Sequence record: OR062947.1
Reading direction: 5' to 3' (one strand)
Source of the DNA: Escherichia phage 348Ecol098PP
Length of the DNA: 64,000 bases
In this document: positions 4,752 through 15,385 of the stretch, piece after piece
Layout: each line of letters starts with the position of its first letter
Position numbering within the stretch: position 1 is the first letter of the stretch
Translations under genes and position numbers: made by a program
The notes under the pieces: model-generated
Database searches by the model: none
What the model was told of the DNA's origin: nothing
Seen by the model: the letters and a program-made list of their open reading frames with translations, nothing else

Positions 4752-5336
4752 ATGACTCGTCCAGCGAGACAGATTTTTAACCAAACAAATATAACAAACT
4801 TTGTTGTGGATATCCCAGATAGTACACGAACTTCAGGTTTTGTGCTCAATGCCCAAACGGCTCCATTGCCAGGTGTGAGAATTCCTGTTGTTGAAACTGT
4901 GACAGGCACAATGGGGCTAGGACGTGCAATGCGTGCAGGCACCACATTTGAATATGACCCTTTTATTGTACGATTTATAGTTGATGAAGACATGACGTCC
5001 TGGATGAACATGTATAAATGGATGCTCAGCACTAATAATTATATAACCGGCCATAATACGGCCCACTCTGATGGTCCTGAGTTTGTTACTTTGCACATTT
5101 TAAACAACAATAAGACCGAAGTAGTTTTGACGGCAAATTTCTATAAACCATGGATTTCCGATTTGAGTGAAATTGAATTTAGTTACACTGAAGACTCTGA
5201 CCCTGCCGTTACTTGCGTAGCAACTATTCATTACGCGTATATGACGATAGAAAAAGATGGCGAAGTCATTGTATCTCAACAACCACGTCAAGCGGTCGAA
5301 TCTAAATCCATTTCTAGACACCCTTCCTTGCGTTAA
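4752..5336 (+). CDS. 3: tail completion / sheath stabilizer gp3
   Basis: Synteny between 2 and 1; first ATG (MTRPARQ...). Confidence 0.75.
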   Translation: MTRPARQIFNQTNITNFVVDIPDSTRTSGFVLNAQTAPLPGVRIPVVETVTGTMGLGRAMRAGTTFEYDPFIVRFIVDEDMTSWMNMYKWMLSTNNYITGHNTAHSDGPEFVTLHILNNNKTEVVLTANFYKPWISDLSEIEFSYTEDSDPAVTCVATIHYAYMTIEKDGEVIVSQQPRQAVESKSISRHPSLR

Positions 5337-7784: not shown

Positions 7785-8147
7785 ATGAAATATCACGTAT
7801 ATGCGGATTTTGAAGCAAATCCTTCTAAAGACCCCGATTGTCGTTTGATACGCAGACCATTTGATTCAGCAGCTCAAGCCTGGGCCTGGATTAAAACTTG
7901 TACTCCTTCTTACACTTTCTTTGAAGTGGTAGATGATAACGGTGTTCTGCATCCAGAACCTACAGAAACTATTAATTTCCTTCTGTTTGCAGGTTATGAC
8001 TGTTATCCTCTTGGCGGTATTGATGATCTTGTTGCTACAGGAAAAACTGTTGAGGCTCTTCGCGAAATCTACAAAAATGCTGAAGAAAATTTTGACTGGT
8101 ATCATATTGTTGATGCTCATACCTTTGAAATGGTGGAACATTCATGA
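7785..8147 (+). CDS. hypothetical protein
   Basis: 120-aa ORF with SD, packed between neighbours. Confidence 0.6.
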   Translation: MKYHVYADFEANPSKDPDCRLIRRPFDSAAQAWAWIKTCTPSYTFFEVVDDNGVLHPEPTETINFLLFAGYDCYPLGGIDDLVATGKTVEALREIYKNAEENFDWYHIVDAHTFEMVEHS

Positions 8148-12189: not shown

Positions 12190-12792
12190 ATGCGAAACCA
12201 AAATAATGATATTGACTCAATGTTCGAAGAGTTCCGAGATAAGGTAAATCCACCTACGTCTTTAGTTGATTCATTACGATATGTTGCAACCGGACGTAAA
12301 TGGTACTGGTCGTCTTCTTATGAGACCACCGAGAAAACGGCTAGCCATAGCAGAAAATCTTTATTAGCCCCAGGTATTATGATTCATGATATCGGAGCTA
12401 TTGCTAAACTAGTTGCAGATCATGATATTAGATTCACCGATTTCGTTGCTCCTACATGGTCTGTTTGTTGTTTAAACACTGAATTGGAATATATCAGCGA
12501 ACGCTCTGAAGATTATTATGGTTTTAGAGATAAGCTTCTGAGGTCTAATATGTTTTATATCGATACAGAAGTTCTAGTCGATAATAAAAAATATTACTTT
12601 ACGTTAATCATCGATTCTGAAACTATGTATGAAGGCAAGCCTTTGCTTAAAAGAGTTGATGCTTTAAGTGCTATTGATGCGCTTTATGAAACCATGGTTG
12701 TTAGTCCTAATTTCACTAACAATTTAATCCTTGAGCAATTTATTATGGAATGTAGAGAATATGTCAAAGCCAACCCTGTACATGCCAAGTAA
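12190..12792 (+). CDS. hypothetical protein
   Basis: 200-aa ORF with SD aaggag. Confidence 0.6.
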   Translation: MRNQNNDIDSMFEEFRDKVNPPTSLVDSLRYVATGRKWYWSSSYETTEKTASHSRKSLLAPGIMIHDIGAIAKLVADHDIRFTDFVAPTWSVCCLNTELEYISERSEDYYGFRDKLLRSNMFYIDTEVLVDNKKYYFTLIIDSETMYEGKPLLKRVDALSAIDALYETMVVSPNFTNNLILEQFIMECREYVKANPVHAK

Positions 12793-13153
12793 GCCCTGGG
12801 CATACGAATACAAACGTAAATTAATCCCAAACGAAGTACTATTTGGCCCTATTTTAGCTTTAGCATTTTTAATCTTTATGATTATAGGAGCTGTTTTAGA
12901 TTCTAGTGAAGTTATATCGTCTGATGCAGTGTTTTTACTTATTATAGCTGGGTCGTTTATTGTGCCATTTTTATTAATGCCTATTAATTGGGTGGGATAT
13001 TGGTACCAAGGACGTCATCACAGAGCTAGAGTACGCGAATGGAAAATTCAATGTGCAAAAGCAAGAGCTCAATATGACGAGGCTGTTAAAAAATATGAAT
13101 ATGACGAAGCCATGGAATTCGTTAAGGAGATAAGATGCAAAAGCCTGAACTGA
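12782..13153 (+). CDS. membrane protein (2 predicted TM)
   Basis: Starts at ATG overlapping upstream stop; hydrophobic segments. Confidence 0.55.
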   Translation: MPSKPWAYEYKRKLIPNEVLFGPILALAFLIFMIIGAVLDSSEVISSDAVFLLIIAGSFIVPFLLMPINWVGYWYQGRHHRARVREWKIQCAKARAQYDEAVKKYEYDEAMEFVKEIRCKSLN

Positions 13154-13162
13154 ATTTATGCT

Positions 13163-13192
13163 GTTTACGCTTCTCAAATGATTAGTTATAAT
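13163..13192 (+). promoter_or_regulatory. early promoter GTTTAC-N18-TATAAT
   Basis: Direct read. Confidence 0.55.
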
Positions 13193-13251
13193 GAACTCCT
13201 AGCTAGACGTGAAAATGAAACAATCGAAAACTTTATTAAGGAATGTAGAAA

Positions 13252-13557
13252 ATGAGTAAGATTATTGAAATTAAAGTACCAGAGTTTAATGATGCCAAAT
13301 CCGCTTCAGATGCAATTTATAAACTTCTGAATCAAGCTGAACGTATCGAAGAAGAAGCAACAAAGATCGCAGACCAATATGCCGTATCATTTTCTGTAGG
13401 TGATTATGGTAGCGGTCGTACTTATTATCCTAAGGGTGAAATCGTATCCCAGTGGATGAAAAATGAAATTGAAAATAATGGTGGCGATGTTAAGCGTGAA
13501 GGTAATGGTTACGTTATTACTGAAGGTGCTTGGGTTTCGTCTTCTGCGTTGTGCTAA
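13252..13557 (+). CDS. small protein, paralog 1 of 3 (C-terminal WVSSSxxC motif)
   Basis: Ends ...GAWVSSSALC. Confidence 0.6.
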   Translation: MSKIIEIKVPEFNDAKSASDAIYKLLNQAERIEEEATKIADQYAVSFSVGDYGSGRTYYPKGEIVSQWMKNEIENNGGDVKREGNGYVITEGAWVSSSALC

Positions 13558-13566
13558 GGAATCATT

Positions 13567-13839
13567 ATGTCTAAAGAACAAACCGAACTGGCTGAAGCTG
13601 TAGCAAAAATCTATGCAGCTATTGAGGCTGCCAAAGAAATTGCTGATAAACAAAACACAACATTCGACTTGCACCCAGCTTATGGTATGGGTGGAACCTA
13701 TCATTCACCCGGACATCTTAAAGCCGATCTTGAACGTTGTACAAAAAACGGCTATGCTGAATGGGCTGACGTTTACCAATACGACTACAACCTGAGCCTC
13801 GAAACTGGTGGTTGGGTCGCATCTTCTCACACTTGCTAA
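13567..13839 (+). CDS. small protein, paralog 2 of 3
   Basis: Ends ...GGWVASSHTC. Confidence 0.6.
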   Translation: MSKEQTELAEAVAKIYAAIEAAKEIADKQNTTFDLHPAYGMGGTYHSPGHLKADLERCTKNGYAEWADVYQYDYNLSLETGGWVASSHTC

Positions 13840-13848
13840 GGAAACTAT

Positions 13849-14046
13849 ATGTCTCGTGAATTAGATTGTGCTGTACGTACCGCAGTAGCTGCCCTGGAAA
13901 ACCTGTTCCAAATTGCAACAGAAGAACGCGAAGAAGTTACATTGTGGATTGAAGATAACGCAGGTCTGAATCTCCAGGACGCGATCTCATTATCCCACAA
14001 TAGTATCACTGTTCAAGGCTGGGTATCATCTAGTTATTCTTGCTAA
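13849..14046 (+). CDS. small protein, paralog 3 of 3
   Basis: Ends ...QGWVSSSYSC. Confidence 0.6.
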   Translation: MSRELDCAVRTAVAALENLFQIATEEREEVTLWIEDNAGLNLQDAISLSHNSITVQGWVSSSYSC

Positions 14047-14049
14047 AAC

Positions 14050-14090
14050 AGTTTACAACAAGATAGGGCTATGTTATAGTAGTCCTATCA
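14050..14090 (+). promoter_or_regulatory. early promoter / PeSL
   Basis: GTTTACA ... atagggcta tgttatag tagtcctat. Confidence 0.5.
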
Positions 14091-14108
14091 AATTAAATGG
14101 AGTCCACA

Positions 14109-14348
14109 ATGATTTATTACGAAAGTATCGGAACCAAAGTGGTTGCTAAAACCATTACTCGTGAAAAGTTTGCAAAGATATTCGATATGCGTTATAAAAA
14201 ATCTGAACACAAAGGCATCCGATTCGAAGATGCGCACTGTACAATTTGCCCTTATAATGAAGACATAAACGGTACAATCGTTCCATTGGTAGAGGCTTCA
14301 CACGATGACCTCTGGGATGAATATGATATCGCATGTCGTGAAATTTAA
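14109..14348 (+). CDS. hypothetical protein
   Basis: SD GGAG before ATG (MIYYESIG). Confidence 0.55.
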   Translation: MIYYESIGTKVVAKTITREKFAKIFDMRYKKSEHKGIRFEDAHCTICPYNEDINGTIVPLVEASHDDLWDEYDIACREI

Positions 14349-14376: not shown

Positions 14377-15333
14377 ATGATGTTAGTTATTGGTTCTCGT
14401 GCACTTCACTATCACGGTCTTATTGATTCTAGCGCTATCAAAAATAGTGATTGGGACTTTATTGCGGACCAAGGTTCTTGGAATGCATTCAAAAATCAAA
14501 TGATGGGTGTATATGTTCACCAAGATAACCCTAATGTTCAAGTTTTCAAATGCTTCCATAATGGACGCGAAACTCATTTTGAAGCATATATTGTTCCGGC
14601 AATCACTAATGTCCGTGAATTAGTCGGTGAACTCACTCCTGAAGATTTCACGTCTTCTTATGACCTTTTAAAATACGCCAAGAAAAATTTGACTAAAGAC
14701 CGTTTGAACGGGTTTTACTGGGCAACTCCTGAGATATGTCTTGCAATTAAGATGTCTCATCGTTTCAAGAAAAATAATCCATTCTTTTTAAAGACTATGA
14801 ACCATATTCAGTATCTTCGTGGTAAAGGTGTTACACTGAACGATGAACTTACTGAAATTATGCTGAAACGCCAGAAAGAAACCTTGAACTATGCTCACCC
14901 AGTTCTTGACACTTCTAAAAGTGCGTTCTTTAAAGATGACATCTATACATATGACCATGATACTATTCATGAAGCCATTGCACTAACAGACCGTCCAGCG
15001 TATACATTTTATATGAAAGATGGTTCTGAAGTCATGACCTCACGCGAGAAGTTCGAATCGTTACCCGAAATGATTAAACTGGCTGGTGTATACGAAGAAT
15101 CATGTGTACTAGCATTAGAACGTTCTCAAATTCCTAATGACTTTAAAATTAACCCTGAAGCCAGTTTTATGATGGCATTGGAAAAAGTCTGTACAAGCAT
15201 CACCTCCGGTTGGTTCCGTGAATACGCATACGAGAACTATTATGAAGTAGTGGCTATGTATCATAAGCTCGGCAAAAATGATTACGTCAAACGTTTCAAA
15301 CAAAATTTCCATATGGTAAAACCTTTCAAATAA
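14377..15333 (+). CDS. hypothetical protein, possible nucleotidyltransferase fold
   Basis: N-terminal GS-x17-DWD resembles a loosened pol-beta nucleotidyltransferase motif. Confidence 0.5.
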   Translation: MMLVIGSRALHYHGLIDSSAIKNSDWDFIADQGSWNAFKNQMMGVYVHQDNPNVQVFKCFHNGRETHFEAYIVPAITNVRELVGELTPEDFTSSYDLLKYAKKNLTKDRLNGFYWATPEICLAIKMSHRFKKNNPFFLKTMNHIQYLRGKGVTLNDELTEIMLKRQKETLNYAHPVLDTSKSAFFKDDIYTYDHDTIHEAIALTDRPAYTFYMKDGSEVMTSREKFESLPEMIKLAGVYEESCVLALERSQIPNDFKINPEASFMMALEKVCTSITSGWFREYAYENYYEVVAMYHKLGKNDYVKRFKQNFHMVKPFK

Positions 15334-15343
15334 CTTCACAAAA

Positions 15344-15385
15344 CTGTTTACGCAATTATAGGACTATGTTATAGTAGTCCTATTA
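15344..15385 (+). promoter_or_regulatory. early promoter inside perfect inverted repeat (PeSL)
   Basis: GTTTAC, inverted repeat ataggacta/tagtcctat flanking tgttatag. Confidence 0.55.

What the first reader, a model, noticed from the sequence alone, without database searches (positions are those of the whole stretch)
13252..14046. Three tandem small paralogs sharing a C-terminal W-V-[SA]-S-S-x-x-C motif
Adjacent ORFs of 101, 90 and 65 aa end in GAWVSSSALC, GGWVASSHTC and QGWVSSSYSC, each followed directly by the stop codon. A conserved C-terminal Cys three residues from the end in a tandem family suggests a shared post-translational handle (lipidation-like or a metal or disulfide contact), or a common binding partner with diversified N-terminal parts.
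Basis: seen in the sequence. Interest (0 to 1): 0.55.

Follow-up and report, generated by a model that had tools for sequence, protein, structure and literature searches.

The report
Cys-ended phage proteins beside nucleotidyltransferase
Three small adjacent phage genes belong to a large, undescribed, phage-only protein family. Its members all end in the tag W-x-x-S-S-x-x-Cys and almost always sit just upstream of one conserved nucleotidyltransferase-like enzyme, which suggests an unstudied enzyme-plus-client system.

Summary
ORFs 13252-13557, 13567-13839 and 13849-14046 (+ strand, one frame, 9-nt spacers) end in WVSSSALC, WVASSHTC and WVSSSYSC followed by a stop. Chance predicts 0.003 such ends in the window. 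One detail is wrong: Cys is the last residue, not three from the end.

The window is an RB69-like Mosigvirus; T4 lacks the block at the syntenic site. An exhaustive HMM search found 171 clusters at 50% identity. Of 155 sequences examined, 139 end in Cys and 135 match W-x-[SAP..]-S-S-x-x-C. None turned up in 185,579 bacterial genomes. No Pfam, NCBIfam, PADLOC or PDB relative exists, and I found no paper on it.

ORF1 and ORF2 are true paralogs. ORF3 shares only its last ~13 residues with them.

Best reading (inferred): the C-terminal tag is a shared handle through which this enzyme recognises, and perhaps modifies, diversified small client proteins. The lipidation idea is not supported.

The parts
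13164..13192 (+). Promoter-like site (TTTACG-17-TATAAT) in the gap upstream of ORF1. It is a possible early promoter for the three-gene unit.
   Evidence: 10 of 12 matches. The total number of such sites in the region is not above the shuffled expectation, so this is weak evidence. It does lie in one of only three intergenic gaps.
13252..13557 (+). ORF1, 101 aa, pI 4.7. Family member of the YGSGRTYYP-hairpin type, ending in WVSSSALC.
   Evidence: (phrog_899, E 1.8e-22). It is the orthologue of RB69ORF139c+138c, which is frameshifted in the RB69 record.
13531..13554 (+). C-terminal tag of ORF1: W-V-S-S-S-A-L-C.
13567..13839 (+). ORF2, 90 aa, pI 5.0. Family member with the YGMGGTY hairpin, ending in WVASSHTC. 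It is the orthologue of RB69ORF137c.
   Evidence: (phrog_899, E 6e-19). AF2 model: pLDDT 94.9, with helix 3-29, hairpin 32-46, helix 48-60, strand 81-85 (GGWVA) and a terminal turn 86-89.
13813..13836 (+). C-terminal tag of ORF2: W-V-A-S-S-H-T-C.
13849..14046 (+). ORF3, 65 aa, pI 4.2. It lacks the YGxG hairpin, ends in WVSSSYSC, and is the orthologue of RB69ORF136c. It shares only the tag region with ORF1 and ORF2.
   Evidence: phrog_4882, E 7.7e-37; own subfamily, 16 loci.
14020..14043 (+). C-terminal tag of ORF3: W-V-S-S-S-Y-S-C.
14052..14080 (+). Promoter-like site (TTTACA-17-TATAGT, with TG) between ORF3 and the next gene.
   Evidence: Weak evidence: a consensus match only.
14097..14348 (+). 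83-aa ORF (phrog_3723, RB69ORF135c) lying between the array and the enzyme gene. It is lineage-specific and not part of the universal module.
   Evidence: Found in only 8 of the loci analysed (cluster c11).
14377..15333 (+). The conserved partner gene ('c1', RB69ORF134c), 318 aa. It has an N-terminal DUF7277 (Pol-beta-type nucleotidyltransferase core with G6, S7, D25, D27 and E69 invariant) and a very highly conserved helical DUF7275 domain.

Best explanation
The three ORFs are real, probably early, phage genes. They belong to a large phage-restricted family of small acidic proteins. The family's one universal feature is a C-terminal tag, W-x-x-S-S-(0-2 residues)-Cys, with Cys at or next to the free C-terminus.

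I propose they are client proteins of the nucleotidyltransferase-fold enzyme encoded just downstream (14377-15333). The enzyme would recognise the shared tag and most likely act on it chemically: NMP or phosphate transfer to one of the invariant Ser hydroxyls, or chemistry that uses the terminal thiol. The diversified bodies of the paralogs would give each client a different target or role, either as substrates that become active effectors or as specificity adaptors for the enzyme.

Shown:
- the genes and the tag;
- conservation of the tag across a very diverse family;
- restriction of the family to phages;
- near-universal, polar synteny with the enzyme gene;
- the enzyme's NTase fold and intact catalytic carboxylates.

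Inferred:
- physical interaction between enzyme and clients;
- that the tag is the recognition or modification site;
- the chemistry involved;
- the biological purpose (host takeover, counter-defence or RNA-end repair).
For: Tag conservation:
- 139 of 155 family sequences end in Cys, and 135 match W.[SAPTGCN]SS..C$. W(-8) is present in 138/139, S(-5) in 138/139 and S(-4) in 136/139, while the rest of the alignment has a mean column identity of 16%.
- The tag sits on unrelated bodies: ORF3-type and ORF1/2-type proteins are similar only in the last ~13 residues.

Synteny:
- FAM-selected loci: the ~310-aa enzyme gene is the only neighbour shared across all lineages, present in 39 of 43 loci. Three of the four exceptions are truncated loci.
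- Enzyme-selected loci: 79 of 85 have at least one family ORF within 4 kb upstream on the same strand. There are 237 such ORFs upstream against 1 downstream on that strand.
- After dereplication at 65% enzyme identity, 47 of 51 lineages carry the pair.
- Three independent Logan contigs show the same order.

Phage restriction: 0 family hits and 5 enzyme hits in 185,579 genomes. All five are MAG contigs that also carry family ORFs upstream.

The enzyme: Pol-beta NTase fold, with GS...DxD...E invariant.

Asymmetric dependence: the enzyme occurs without the small proteins in 4 lineages, whereas the small proteins are almost never found without the enzyme nearby.

Copy number varies from 1 to 6, with distinct conserved subfamilies.

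The small proteins alone are not toxic in E. coli: phiR1-RT g126, g127 and g128 gave relative CFU 0.94, 0.69 and 1.08 (PMC6893735 Table S6).
Against: - No direct evidence of interaction or modification exists.
- In the AF2 model of ORF2 the tag is part of the fold (strand 81-85 plus a terminal turn; last-block pLDDT 87), not a floppy tail. Trp and Ser-Ser could therefore be conserved for structural reasons.
- The enzyme persists without family genes in one gammaproteobacterial-type lineage (L092/93/95/125). More distant homologues in Streptomyces, Gordonia and KVP40 phages also lack them. Its core activity therefore does not require them.
- Erwinia phage Hallingskeid has family copies next to Pnkp and far from the enzyme gene.
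- Known protein-modifying Pol-beta NTases (GlnE, GlnD, MntA, DrrA; from established knowledge) target Tyr, not Ser or Cys.
- The enzyme's closest structural relatives act on tRNA 3' ends or on small molecules.
Confidence: 0.45

Rival explanations
1. Toxin-antitoxin-like regulation. The enzyme is a MenT/AbiEii-like RNA (tRNA 3'-end) nucleotidyltransferase, used for host shut-off or for RNA-end repair. The small upstream proteins are its inhibitors or regulators, in the manner of MenA antitoxins. They use the C-terminal tag to plug or switch the active site rather than being substrates.
For: - Small genes upstream of the NTase gene on the same strand is the usual antitoxin-toxin order.
- MenT-family toxins are controlled by small partner proteins (PMC10435456 and PMC11375011, listed).
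- The small proteins alone are non-toxic.
- Pnkp and/or RNA ligase 1 lie nearby in 6 of 51 lineages, which fits an RNA-end activity.
Against: - One inhibitor would suffice, yet genomes keep up to 5-6 diverged paralogs with conserved subfamilies.
- Lineages that keep the enzyme without any family gene argue against an obligatory antidote.
- Toxicity of the enzyme has never been tested: g125 was not in the phiR1-RT screen.
Confidence: 0.2
2. Independent effectors. The small proteins are host-directed effectors (anti-defence or takeover) whose C-terminal Trp/Ser-Ser/Cys motif contacts a conserved host factor or a metal, or makes an intermolecular disulfide. The enzyme gene is merely co-located in the same early accessory region or the same pathway, without direct contact.
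For: - The proteins are acidic and small, vary in copy number and have fast-evolving bodies, as is typical of counter-defence arrays.
- Some copies sit away from the enzyme gene (L003).
- The tag appears structurally integrated in the model.
Against: - Neighbourhoods are otherwise unrelated across 51 lineages with hosts from enterobacteria to cyanobacteria-type MAG contigs, yet order, strand and proximity to the enzyme gene are kept (median gap about 350 nt). That is hard to explain by co-location alone.
- A host target would have to be universal across all these hosts.
- The phiR1-RT orthologues show no toxicity, although anti-defence proteins need not be toxic.
Confidence: 0.2
3. RiPP-like scaffold chemistry. 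The Ser-Ser...Cys-COOH end is converted into a thioether (lanthionine- or AviCys-like ring) or another Cys-derived product. The NTase domain would activate Ser by nucleotidylation or phosphorylation, and the His/Cys-rich DUF7275 domain would do the elimination and cyclisation.
For: - The three window proteins have Ser at -4 and Cys at -1 with a free carboxylate. From established knowledge, this is the S-x-x-C-COOH spacing that forms AviCys in epidermin-type peptides.
- Tandem precursor-like genes lie next to one enzyme.
- Some members carry internal repeats of the motif, like multi-core precursors.
- DUF7275 has invariant H128, H174, H194, D195, H198, C243 and C272.
Against: - The Ser-to-Cys spacing is not fixed across the family: 0, 1 or 2 residues intervene, and sometimes one residue follows the Cys.
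- No LanB, LanC, LanM, HFCD-decarboxylase or radical-SAM relative was seen among the conserved neighbours.
- The 'leader' is a folded domain of high predicted confidence.
Confidence: 0.08
4. Lipidation-type handle (one of the first reader's suggestions). The terminal Cys would be prenylated or acylated to anchor the proteins to a membrane.
For: Only the presence of a conserved Cys near the C-terminus.
Against: - Cys is at -1, not at -4 followed by aliphatic residues.
- The residues at -3 and -2 are mostly E, Q, S, H and S, M, N, Q.
- No signal peptide or lipobox is present, and the proteins are strongly acidic and soluble-looking.
- From established knowledge, bacterial hosts lack CaaX prenyltransferases.
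Confidence: 0.02

Closest known systems
MenT/MenA and AbiEii/AbiEi systems (DUF1814 nucleotidyltransferase toxins with cognate small or regulatory partner proteins)
   Different: - No sequence-level membership: no DUF1814 or AbiEii Pfam hit even at E <= 5.
- The system is phage-encoded and phage-restricted.
- There are several diverged small partners per enzyme, all carrying an invariant C-terminal W-x-x-S-S-x-x-C tag that MenA and AbiEi do not, to my knowledge, have.
- Toxicity is untested.
MntA-HepT (MNT-HEPN) type VII toxin-antitoxin pairs, in which a minimal Pol-beta NTase AMPylates its partner protein
   Same: It is a precedent for a Pol-beta-fold NTase whose substrate is the protein encoded next to it (established knowledge; the family is discussed in PMC3710099, listed).
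   Different: - The modified residue there is a Tyr in a HEPN RNase. Here the invariant candidates are Ser-Ser and Cys at the C-terminus.
- ORF3-type members lack the conserved Tyr hairpin altogether.
- The small proteins show no HEPN features.
RlaP (PF10127), the RNA-ligase-associated Pol-beta NTase of phages and bacteria
   Same: It is a phage Pol-beta NTase of an accessory nature. In 6 of 51 lineages the enzyme here also lies near T4-type RNA ligase 1 and/or Pnkp. RlaP adds 1-2 NMPs to damaged RNA 3' ends (PMC12776372; PMC7824862).
   Different: No PF10127 hit. The C-terminal domain (DUF7275) is different. No Cys-ended small partner is reported in what I read on RlaP (the abstract of PMC12776372 and passages of PMC7824862). 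The association with RNA-repair genes holds only in a minority of lineages.
C-terminal S/T/C-x-x-C-COOH ends of AviCys-forming lanthipeptide precursors (for example EpiA)
   Same: A terminal Cys with a free carboxylate, a Ser three positions upstream, and tandem small genes next to an enzyme gene.
   Different: - The spacing varies across the family.
- The 'leader' is a folded 60-90-aa domain.
- The defining enzymes (dehydratase, HFCD decarboxylase) were not found nearby.
Small acidic carrier or tag proteins with a conserved C-terminal handle (ThiS/MoaD -GG, LysW -EDWGE, Pup -GGQ/E)
   Same: Small, acidic proteins whose most conserved element is the extreme C-terminus, encoded next to the enzyme that acts on that end (established knowledge).
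   Different: - The fold is different: helix, hairpin, helix and strand, not a beta-grasp or zinc ribbon.
- The terminal residue is Cys.
- The neighbouring enzyme has a Pol-beta NTase fold, not an E1-like or ATP-grasp fold.

Membership tests
Cys-ended small phage protein family (phrog_899 / phrog_4882; no Pfam entry) | C-terminal W-x-[SAP]-S-S-x(0-2)-C at the end of a protein of about 60-140 aa | tested here: met
   All three window ORFs have it. 135 of 155 family sequences match the strict pattern.
Cys-ended small phage protein family (phrog_899 / phrog_4882; no Pfam entry) | N-terminal helix ending in ...A-E-x-I-A-D-E..., followed by a Y-G-x-G-G-T-Y beta-hairpin | tested here: inconclusive
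   ORF1 (YGSGRTYY) and ORF2 (YGMGGTYH) have it. ORF3 lacks the hairpin and shows no similarity outside the tag.
Cys-ended small phage protein family (phrog_899 / phrog_4882; no Pfam entry) | Located upstream of, and on the same strand as, a DUF7277+DUF7275 gene | tested here: met
   In the window, ORF3's stop at 14046 is 331 nt before the enzyme's start at 14377. The arrangement holds in 47 of 51 lineages.
Pol-beta-type nucleotidyltransferase superfamily (for the partner enzyme, 14377-15333) | hG[GS] ... [DE]x[DE] ... third acidic residue, on the alpha-beta-alpha-beta-alpha-beta core | tested here: met
DUF1814 / AbiEii / MenT toxin family (for the partner enzyme) | Sequence membership (Pfam model) and demonstrated growth inhibition neutralised by the upstream gene | tested here: not met
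   No Pfam hit other than DUF7275 and DUF7277 for 32 homologues at E <= 5, apart from single stray hits. Toxicity cannot be tested here.
RlaP (PF10127) | Match to PF10127 and linkage to RNA ligase genes | tested here: not met
   No PF10127 match. RNA ligase or Pnkp lies nearby in only 6 of 51 lineages.
HD-domain phosphohydrolase (considered for DUF7275 because of the H...HD...H-like motifs) | HD fold | tested here: not met
CaaX-type prenylation substrates | Cys at -4 followed by two aliphatic residues and X | tested here: not met
   Cys is at -1. Residues -3 and -2 are mostly polar.
Bacterial lipoproteins | N-terminal signal peptide with a lipobox Cys | tested here: not met
   The N-termini are acidic, amphipathic helices (MSK...). 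The conserved Cys is C-terminal.
AviCys/lanthipeptide precursors | S/T/C-x-x-C-COOH core plus dehydratase and HFCD decarboxylase genes in the cluster | tested here: inconclusive
   The three window ORFs meet the core spacing (S at -4, C at -1), but the family as a whole does not keep it. The defining enzymes were not seen among the conserved neighbours. The whole genome was not scanned.
Ubiquitin-like sulfur carriers (ThiS/MoaD) | Beta-grasp fold and C-terminal Gly-Gly | tested here: not met
   The predicted fold is helix, hairpin, helix and strand, with no beta-grasp hit. The terminal residue is Cys.
YefM/Phd-type antitoxins | Significant fold or sequence similarity | tested here: inconclusive

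The most novel reading that the evidence does not exclude
The module is a previously unrecognised phage protein-tagging or maturation system. A Pol-beta nucleotidyltransferase with a unique His/Cys-rich domain would covalently process a genetically encoded C-terminal W-x-x-S-S-x-x-Cys tag on a set of small effector proteins. The processing could be Ser nucleotidylation or phosphorylation, possibly followed by elimination and thioether ring closure with the terminal Cys, or a Cys-linked nucleotide. That would be an enzyme-client chemistry with no described counterpart among NTases and, as far as I know, none described in virulent phages.
Probability: 0.2. Interest if true: 0.85.

Novelty: new variant of a known kind. 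Interest (0 to 1): 0.66.

Why it matters
Two abundant groups of phage 'hypothetical proteins' turn out to form one conserved two-part module. One is a set of Cys-ended small proteins (at least 171 clusters at 50% identity). The other is DUF7277/DUF7275 (more than 2,100 proteins, in 733 deposited phage genomes). The module occurs in T4-like phages, Phapecoctavirus, Otagovirus and jumbo phages, but the syntenic T4 site lacks it.

The module gives a concrete, testable hypothesis for both groups: an NTase that works on, or through, a shared C-terminal tag. If the tag is enzymatically modified, this would be a new protein-modification chemistry and a portable recognition tag. If instead the enzyme is an RNA-end transferase regulated by the small proteins, it adds a new player to the conflict over tRNA damage and repair between phages and bacterial defence systems.

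Tried and rejected
Family and structure searches for the small proteins:
- Pfam, NCBIfam, PADLOC and PHROG annotation: no named family. There were only weak stray hits, such as DUF4279 in 9 of 146 members.
- PDB profile search: only designed helical bundles, an artefact of the helix composition.
- The afdb50 fold library was not available.

The enzyme:
- PDB profile search found nothing.
- A HEPN Rx4-6H reading of 'SHRYKKNSPH' was rejected because the His is not conserved; the window protein has NNPFF there.
- I tested whether a W279-to-R change in the SITSGWFR motif tracks loss of the small proteins. It does not: L115 and L126 have R and still carry 4-5 family genes.

Other checks:
- Bacterial genomes: 0 family hits and 5 enzyme hits, the latter all MAG contigs that look like phage.
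- Literature searches on the RB69 ORF names, the DUF numbers, C-terminal cysteine plus NTase, and MenT in phages found no description of this family.
- The first attempt to scan collections with the full 146-sequence alignment failed for lack of a conserved stretch.
Full report
**The observation.** The three ORFs exist exactly as described: 13252-13557 (101 aa), 13567-13839 (90 aa) and 13849-14046 (65 aa). All are on the + strand and in one reading frame. Each stop codon overlaps a Shine-Dalgarno-like TAAGGA, and the next ATG follows 9 nt after the stop. The proteins end in GAWVSSSALC, GGWVASSHTC and QGWVSSSYSC. The pattern W.[SA]SS..C-stop occurs three times in the six-frame translation of the window, only at these ends. 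The expectation is 0.003 from residue frequencies and from 300 shuffles. Synonymous differences in the motif codons show that the constraint is on the protein.

**Where this is.** The window is an RB69-like Mosigvirus, 96-98% identical to phages moha, AV118 and RB69. The ORFs correspond to RB69ORF139c/138c, ORF137c and ORF136c. They lie in the hyperplastic region between the e.3/e.4 genes and e.2, downstream of the lysozyme gene region. In T4 the e.3 and e.2 genes are adjacent. The whole block is therefore missing there: three small ORFs, an 83-aa ORF, a 318-aa ORF and two further ORFs. A scan of T4 positions 60-80 kb found no member of either family.

**The family.**
- PHROG places ORF1 and ORF2 in phrog_899 and ORF3 in phrog_4882, both of unknown function. 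Pfam, NCBIfam and PADLOC have nothing.
- tblastn finds ORF1 relatives in 397 deposited phage genomes. These include many Straboviridae genera, Erwinia jumbo phages, and Pseudomonas and Klebsiella phages.
- A profile search of 1.84 billion cluster representatives returned 171 clusters at E <= 1e-3. Nearly all are proteins of 60-140 aa whose match runs to their last residue.
- Of 155 sequences examined, 139 end in Cys and 135 match W-x-[SAPTGCN]-S-S-x-x-C. W(-8), S(-5), S(-4) and C(-1) are essentially invariant, while mean column identity over the whole alignment is 16%.
- A second motif, Y-G-(M/S)-G-G-T-Y-Y-P, marks a beta-hairpin in most members.
- Variants exist. Cys can sit directly after Ser-Ser (GKIWYPSSC type). 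One extra residue can follow the Cys (WVSSTQECN type). The motif can be repeated internally. A small Cys-less subgroup also exists.
- The proteins are acidic, with a median pI of 4.5.
- 74 of 155 have no Cys other than the terminal one. This excludes an intramolecular disulfide or zinc site as the general explanation.
- A motif scan of 185,579 bacterial and archaeal genomes found no member.
- The ten clusters I looked up are unnamed metagenomic sequences.

**Are the three paralogs?** ORF1 and ORF2 are paralogs: BLASTP E 2e-4 over 54 residues, the same PHROG, and the same BLAST cluster. ORF3 belongs to a separate conserved subfamily found in 16 loci. Its similarity to the main group is confined to the last ~13 residues: hhalign probability is 92% with the tag and 3% after the last nine residues are removed. 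The GKIWYPSSC subfamily, by contrast, remains detectably related through the N-terminal helix (71% probability without the tag). The tag therefore sits on bodies that are at best very remotely related. That is the behaviour of a functional module rather than a leftover of common descent.

**The conserved neighbour.** I fetched 39 viral contigs through the YGMGGTY motif and clustered all neighbouring ORFs.
- Only one neighbour family recurs everywhere: a ~300-320-aa protein, present in 39 of 43 loci. Three of the four exceptions are truncated loci.
- This protein is the window ORF 14377-15333 (RB69ORF134c; Pfam DUF7277 plus DUF7275).
- To avoid ascertainment bias I repeated the analysis from the enzyme side. 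Among 85 loci fetched with the enzyme profile, 79 have at least one family ORF within 4 kb upstream on the same strand.
- In total, 237 family-type ORFs lie upstream on the same strand against 1 downstream. The motif-only criterion produced just 5 chance hits on the other strand.
- The gap from the last family stop codon to the enzyme start is 2-1622 nt, with a median of about 350 nt.
- After dereplication at 65% enzyme identity, 47 of 51 lineages carry the pair, with 1 to 6 small genes each.
- Three independent contigs from another data source show the same order.
- Deposited genomes of unrelated phage groups show it too: Pseudomonas phiPsa315, Escherichia phage anhysbys and Acinetobacter phage Apostate.
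- The enzyme is also phage-restricted. It gave five hits in the genome collection, all MAG contigs with family ORFs upstream.
- The dependence is asymmetric. One lineage (L092/93/95/125) keeps the enzyme without the small genes. So do more distant enzyme homologues in Streptomyces, Gordonia and KVP40 phages.
- The small genes, by contrast, are rarely far from the enzyme. Erwinia phage Hallingskeid, with copies next to Pnkp, is the exception seen.

**What the enzyme is.**
- The family has 2130 members at E <= 1e-3 and occurs in 733 deposited phage genomes.
- Its N-terminal ~100 residues carry invariant G6-S7, D25-x-D27 and E69. This is the signature of Pol-beta-type nucleotidyltransferases (established knowledge; reviewed in PMC2794190, listed).
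- The C-terminal helical DUF7275 is even more conserved, at 50-60% identity between coliphages and uncultured jumbo phages. It holds invariant His, Asp, Glu and Cys residues. It has no recognisable fold relative, and HD and HEPN readings were rejected.
- There is no sequence membership in DUF1814/AbiEii or in RlaP/PF10127.

**Other context.**
- Consensus promoter-like sites fall in the three intergenic gaps: 13164-13192, 14052-14080 and 15347-15375. This is weak evidence for early transcription.
- Pnkp and/or T4-type RNA ligase 1 lie within the fetched locus in 6 of 51 enzyme lineages. In one of these, RNA ligase, an 81-aa ORF, the family gene and the enzyme gene are contiguous. This is a lead towards RNA-end metabolism, as for RlaP (PMC7824862, PMC12776372), but it holds only for a minority.
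- Experimental data exist for orthologues. Yersinia phage phiR1-RT g126, g127 and g128 are family members, and g125 is the enzyme. In a published toxicity screen the three small genes gave relative CFU 0.94, 0.69 and 1.08 against a cut-off of 0.4. They were therefore not toxic in E. coli. The enzyme was not screened (PMC6893735 Table S6).

**How it most likely works.** The following are shown: the genes, the tag and its extreme conservation, the phage restriction, the polar near-universal synteny, and the NTase fold with intact catalytic residues. From these I infer that the small proteins are clients of the enzyme and that the C-terminal tag is what the enzyme recognises. Three facts point to a common handle on diversified bodies:
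- The tag is shared by otherwise unrelated bodies.
- Several diverged paralogs accompany a single enzyme gene.
- The small genes depend on the enzyme's presence, but not the reverse.

The likeliest chemistry for a Pol-beta NTase is transfer of an NMP (or, as in auto-phosphorylating MenT relatives, a phosphate) to a hydroxyl. That makes the invariant Ser-Ser the prime candidate site. The terminal Cys, whose distance from Ser-Ser varies by 0-2 residues, would then act as a flexible thiol or metal ligand. I give this client/handle model 0.45.

The main rivals are as follows.
- Antitoxin-like inhibition of a MenT-like RNA transferase (0.2). The fold relatives and the gene order favour it. The many paralogs and the enzyme-only lineages count against it.
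- Independent host-directed effectors that are merely co-located (0.2). The conserved order and spacing across otherwise unrelated neighbourhoods count against it.
- RiPP-like processing of a Ser...Cys-COOH end (0.08). The window proteins have the S-x-x-C-COOH spacing of AviCys precursors, but the family does not keep it, and the defining enzymes are absent nearby.
- Lipidation (0.02). The position of the Cys, the polar residues around it and the lack of any signal sequence contradict it.

**Comparison with what is known, and novelty.** The module resembles known pairs of a Pol-beta NTase and a small partner protein (MenT/MenA, AbiE, MntA/HepT). It fails their membership tests at the sequence level, and it differs in three ways. 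It is phage-borne. It has arrays of partners. Those partners carry an invariant Cys-ended tag with no described counterpart. I found no paper, Pfam entry or solved structure for the small proteins. I therefore rate it a new variant of a known kind (NTase plus cognate small proteins). There is about a 0.2 chance that it is a genuinely new protein-tag chemistry.

**Limits.**
- The locus sets came from motif-seeded scans, so they under-sample divergent members.
- Genome-wide co-occurrence was not counted; only neighbourhoods of +/-4-8 kb were examined.

Noticed in passing
window 13252-13557 versus L001 (RB69 NC_004928) 4992-5298: The RB69 reference record has a 1-nt insertion (an extra T after CAGTGG) that splits the ORF1 orthologue into RB69ORF139c and ORF138c. 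It also has a Ser-to-Pro change inside the tag (WVSSPALC). The window copy is intact. This is either a sequencing error or decay in the laboratory strain.
   Followed up: yes
window 13154-13251 versus L001 4636-4995: The window lacks gene e.3, which lies between e.4 and the first small ORF in RB69. About 240-250 nt are missing, as in phage moha.
   Followed up: partly
L134 (T4 NC_000866 60000-80000), e.2/e.3 junction at locus 7958-7961: In T4 the genes e.3 and e.2 abut. The RB69-type block (three Cys-ended ORFs, an 83-aa ORF, the NTase-like ORF and two more ORFs) is an insertion or deletion difference between Mosigvirus and Tequatrovirus.
   Followed up: partly
proteins P0091, P0074, P0050, P0055, P0092: Some family members contain internal repeats of the tag-like sequence (FDSSGC, WESSSEG, WDSSGC) upstream of the terminal copy. 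This is reminiscent of multi-core precursor peptides.
   Followed up: no
L137 2612-5130; L003 1176-4207; L004-L007, L012, L017, L090, L091 and others: T4-type RNA ligase 1 and/or polynucleotide kinase-phosphatase lie within a few kb upstream of the small-protein/NTase pair in 6 of 51 enzyme lineages. In L137, RNA ligase, an 81-aa ORF, the family gene and the enzyme gene are contiguous.
   Followed up: partly
L092, L093, L095, L125 (IMG/VR contigs, one lineage): This lineage keeps the DUF7277/DUF7275 gene (with SITSGRFR instead of SITSGWFR) but has no Cys-ended small ORF within 4 kb upstream. A 178-aa ORF occupies that position instead.
   Followed up: partly
L043 (Streptomyces phage BillNye), L044 (Gordonia phage WilliamBoone), L046 (Vibrio phage KVP40.0037): More distant, shorter (~250 aa) homologues of the DUF7275 part occur in actinophages and KVP40 without any Cys-ended small genes nearby. 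In WilliamBoone the gene lies next to a tRNA gene array, and in BillNye about 2 kb from a polynucleotide kinase gene.
   Followed up: no
window 14097-14348: An 83-aa acidic ORF (phrog_3723, RB69ORF135c) with an HCTICPY sequence sits between the array and the enzyme gene. It is present only in Mosigvirus/Karamvirus-type loci.
   Followed up: no
L138 (Yersinia phage phiR1-RT) 2242-3975: g128, g127 and g126 are Cys-ended family members (ending ESSSC, SSSDMC and SSSSDC), and g125 is the NTase-like protein. The published toxicity screen (PMC6893735, Table S6) found the three small genes non-toxic in E. coli.
   Followed up: yes
L045 (Acinetobacter phage Apostate) 3662-5167: The enzyme orthologue is annotated 'putative nucleotidyltransferase', and a 'putative ADP-ribosyl transferase' gene lies two genes downstream. 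This pairing was not seen elsewhere.
   Followed up: no
L002 (phage vB_Eco_F27) 3262-3657: The e.4 orthologue just upstream of the array is annotated 'sulfurtransferase' in one deposited genome. Pfam gave only sub-threshold membrane-protein hits for the window copy (12731-13153), so the annotation looks unsupported.
   Followed up: partly
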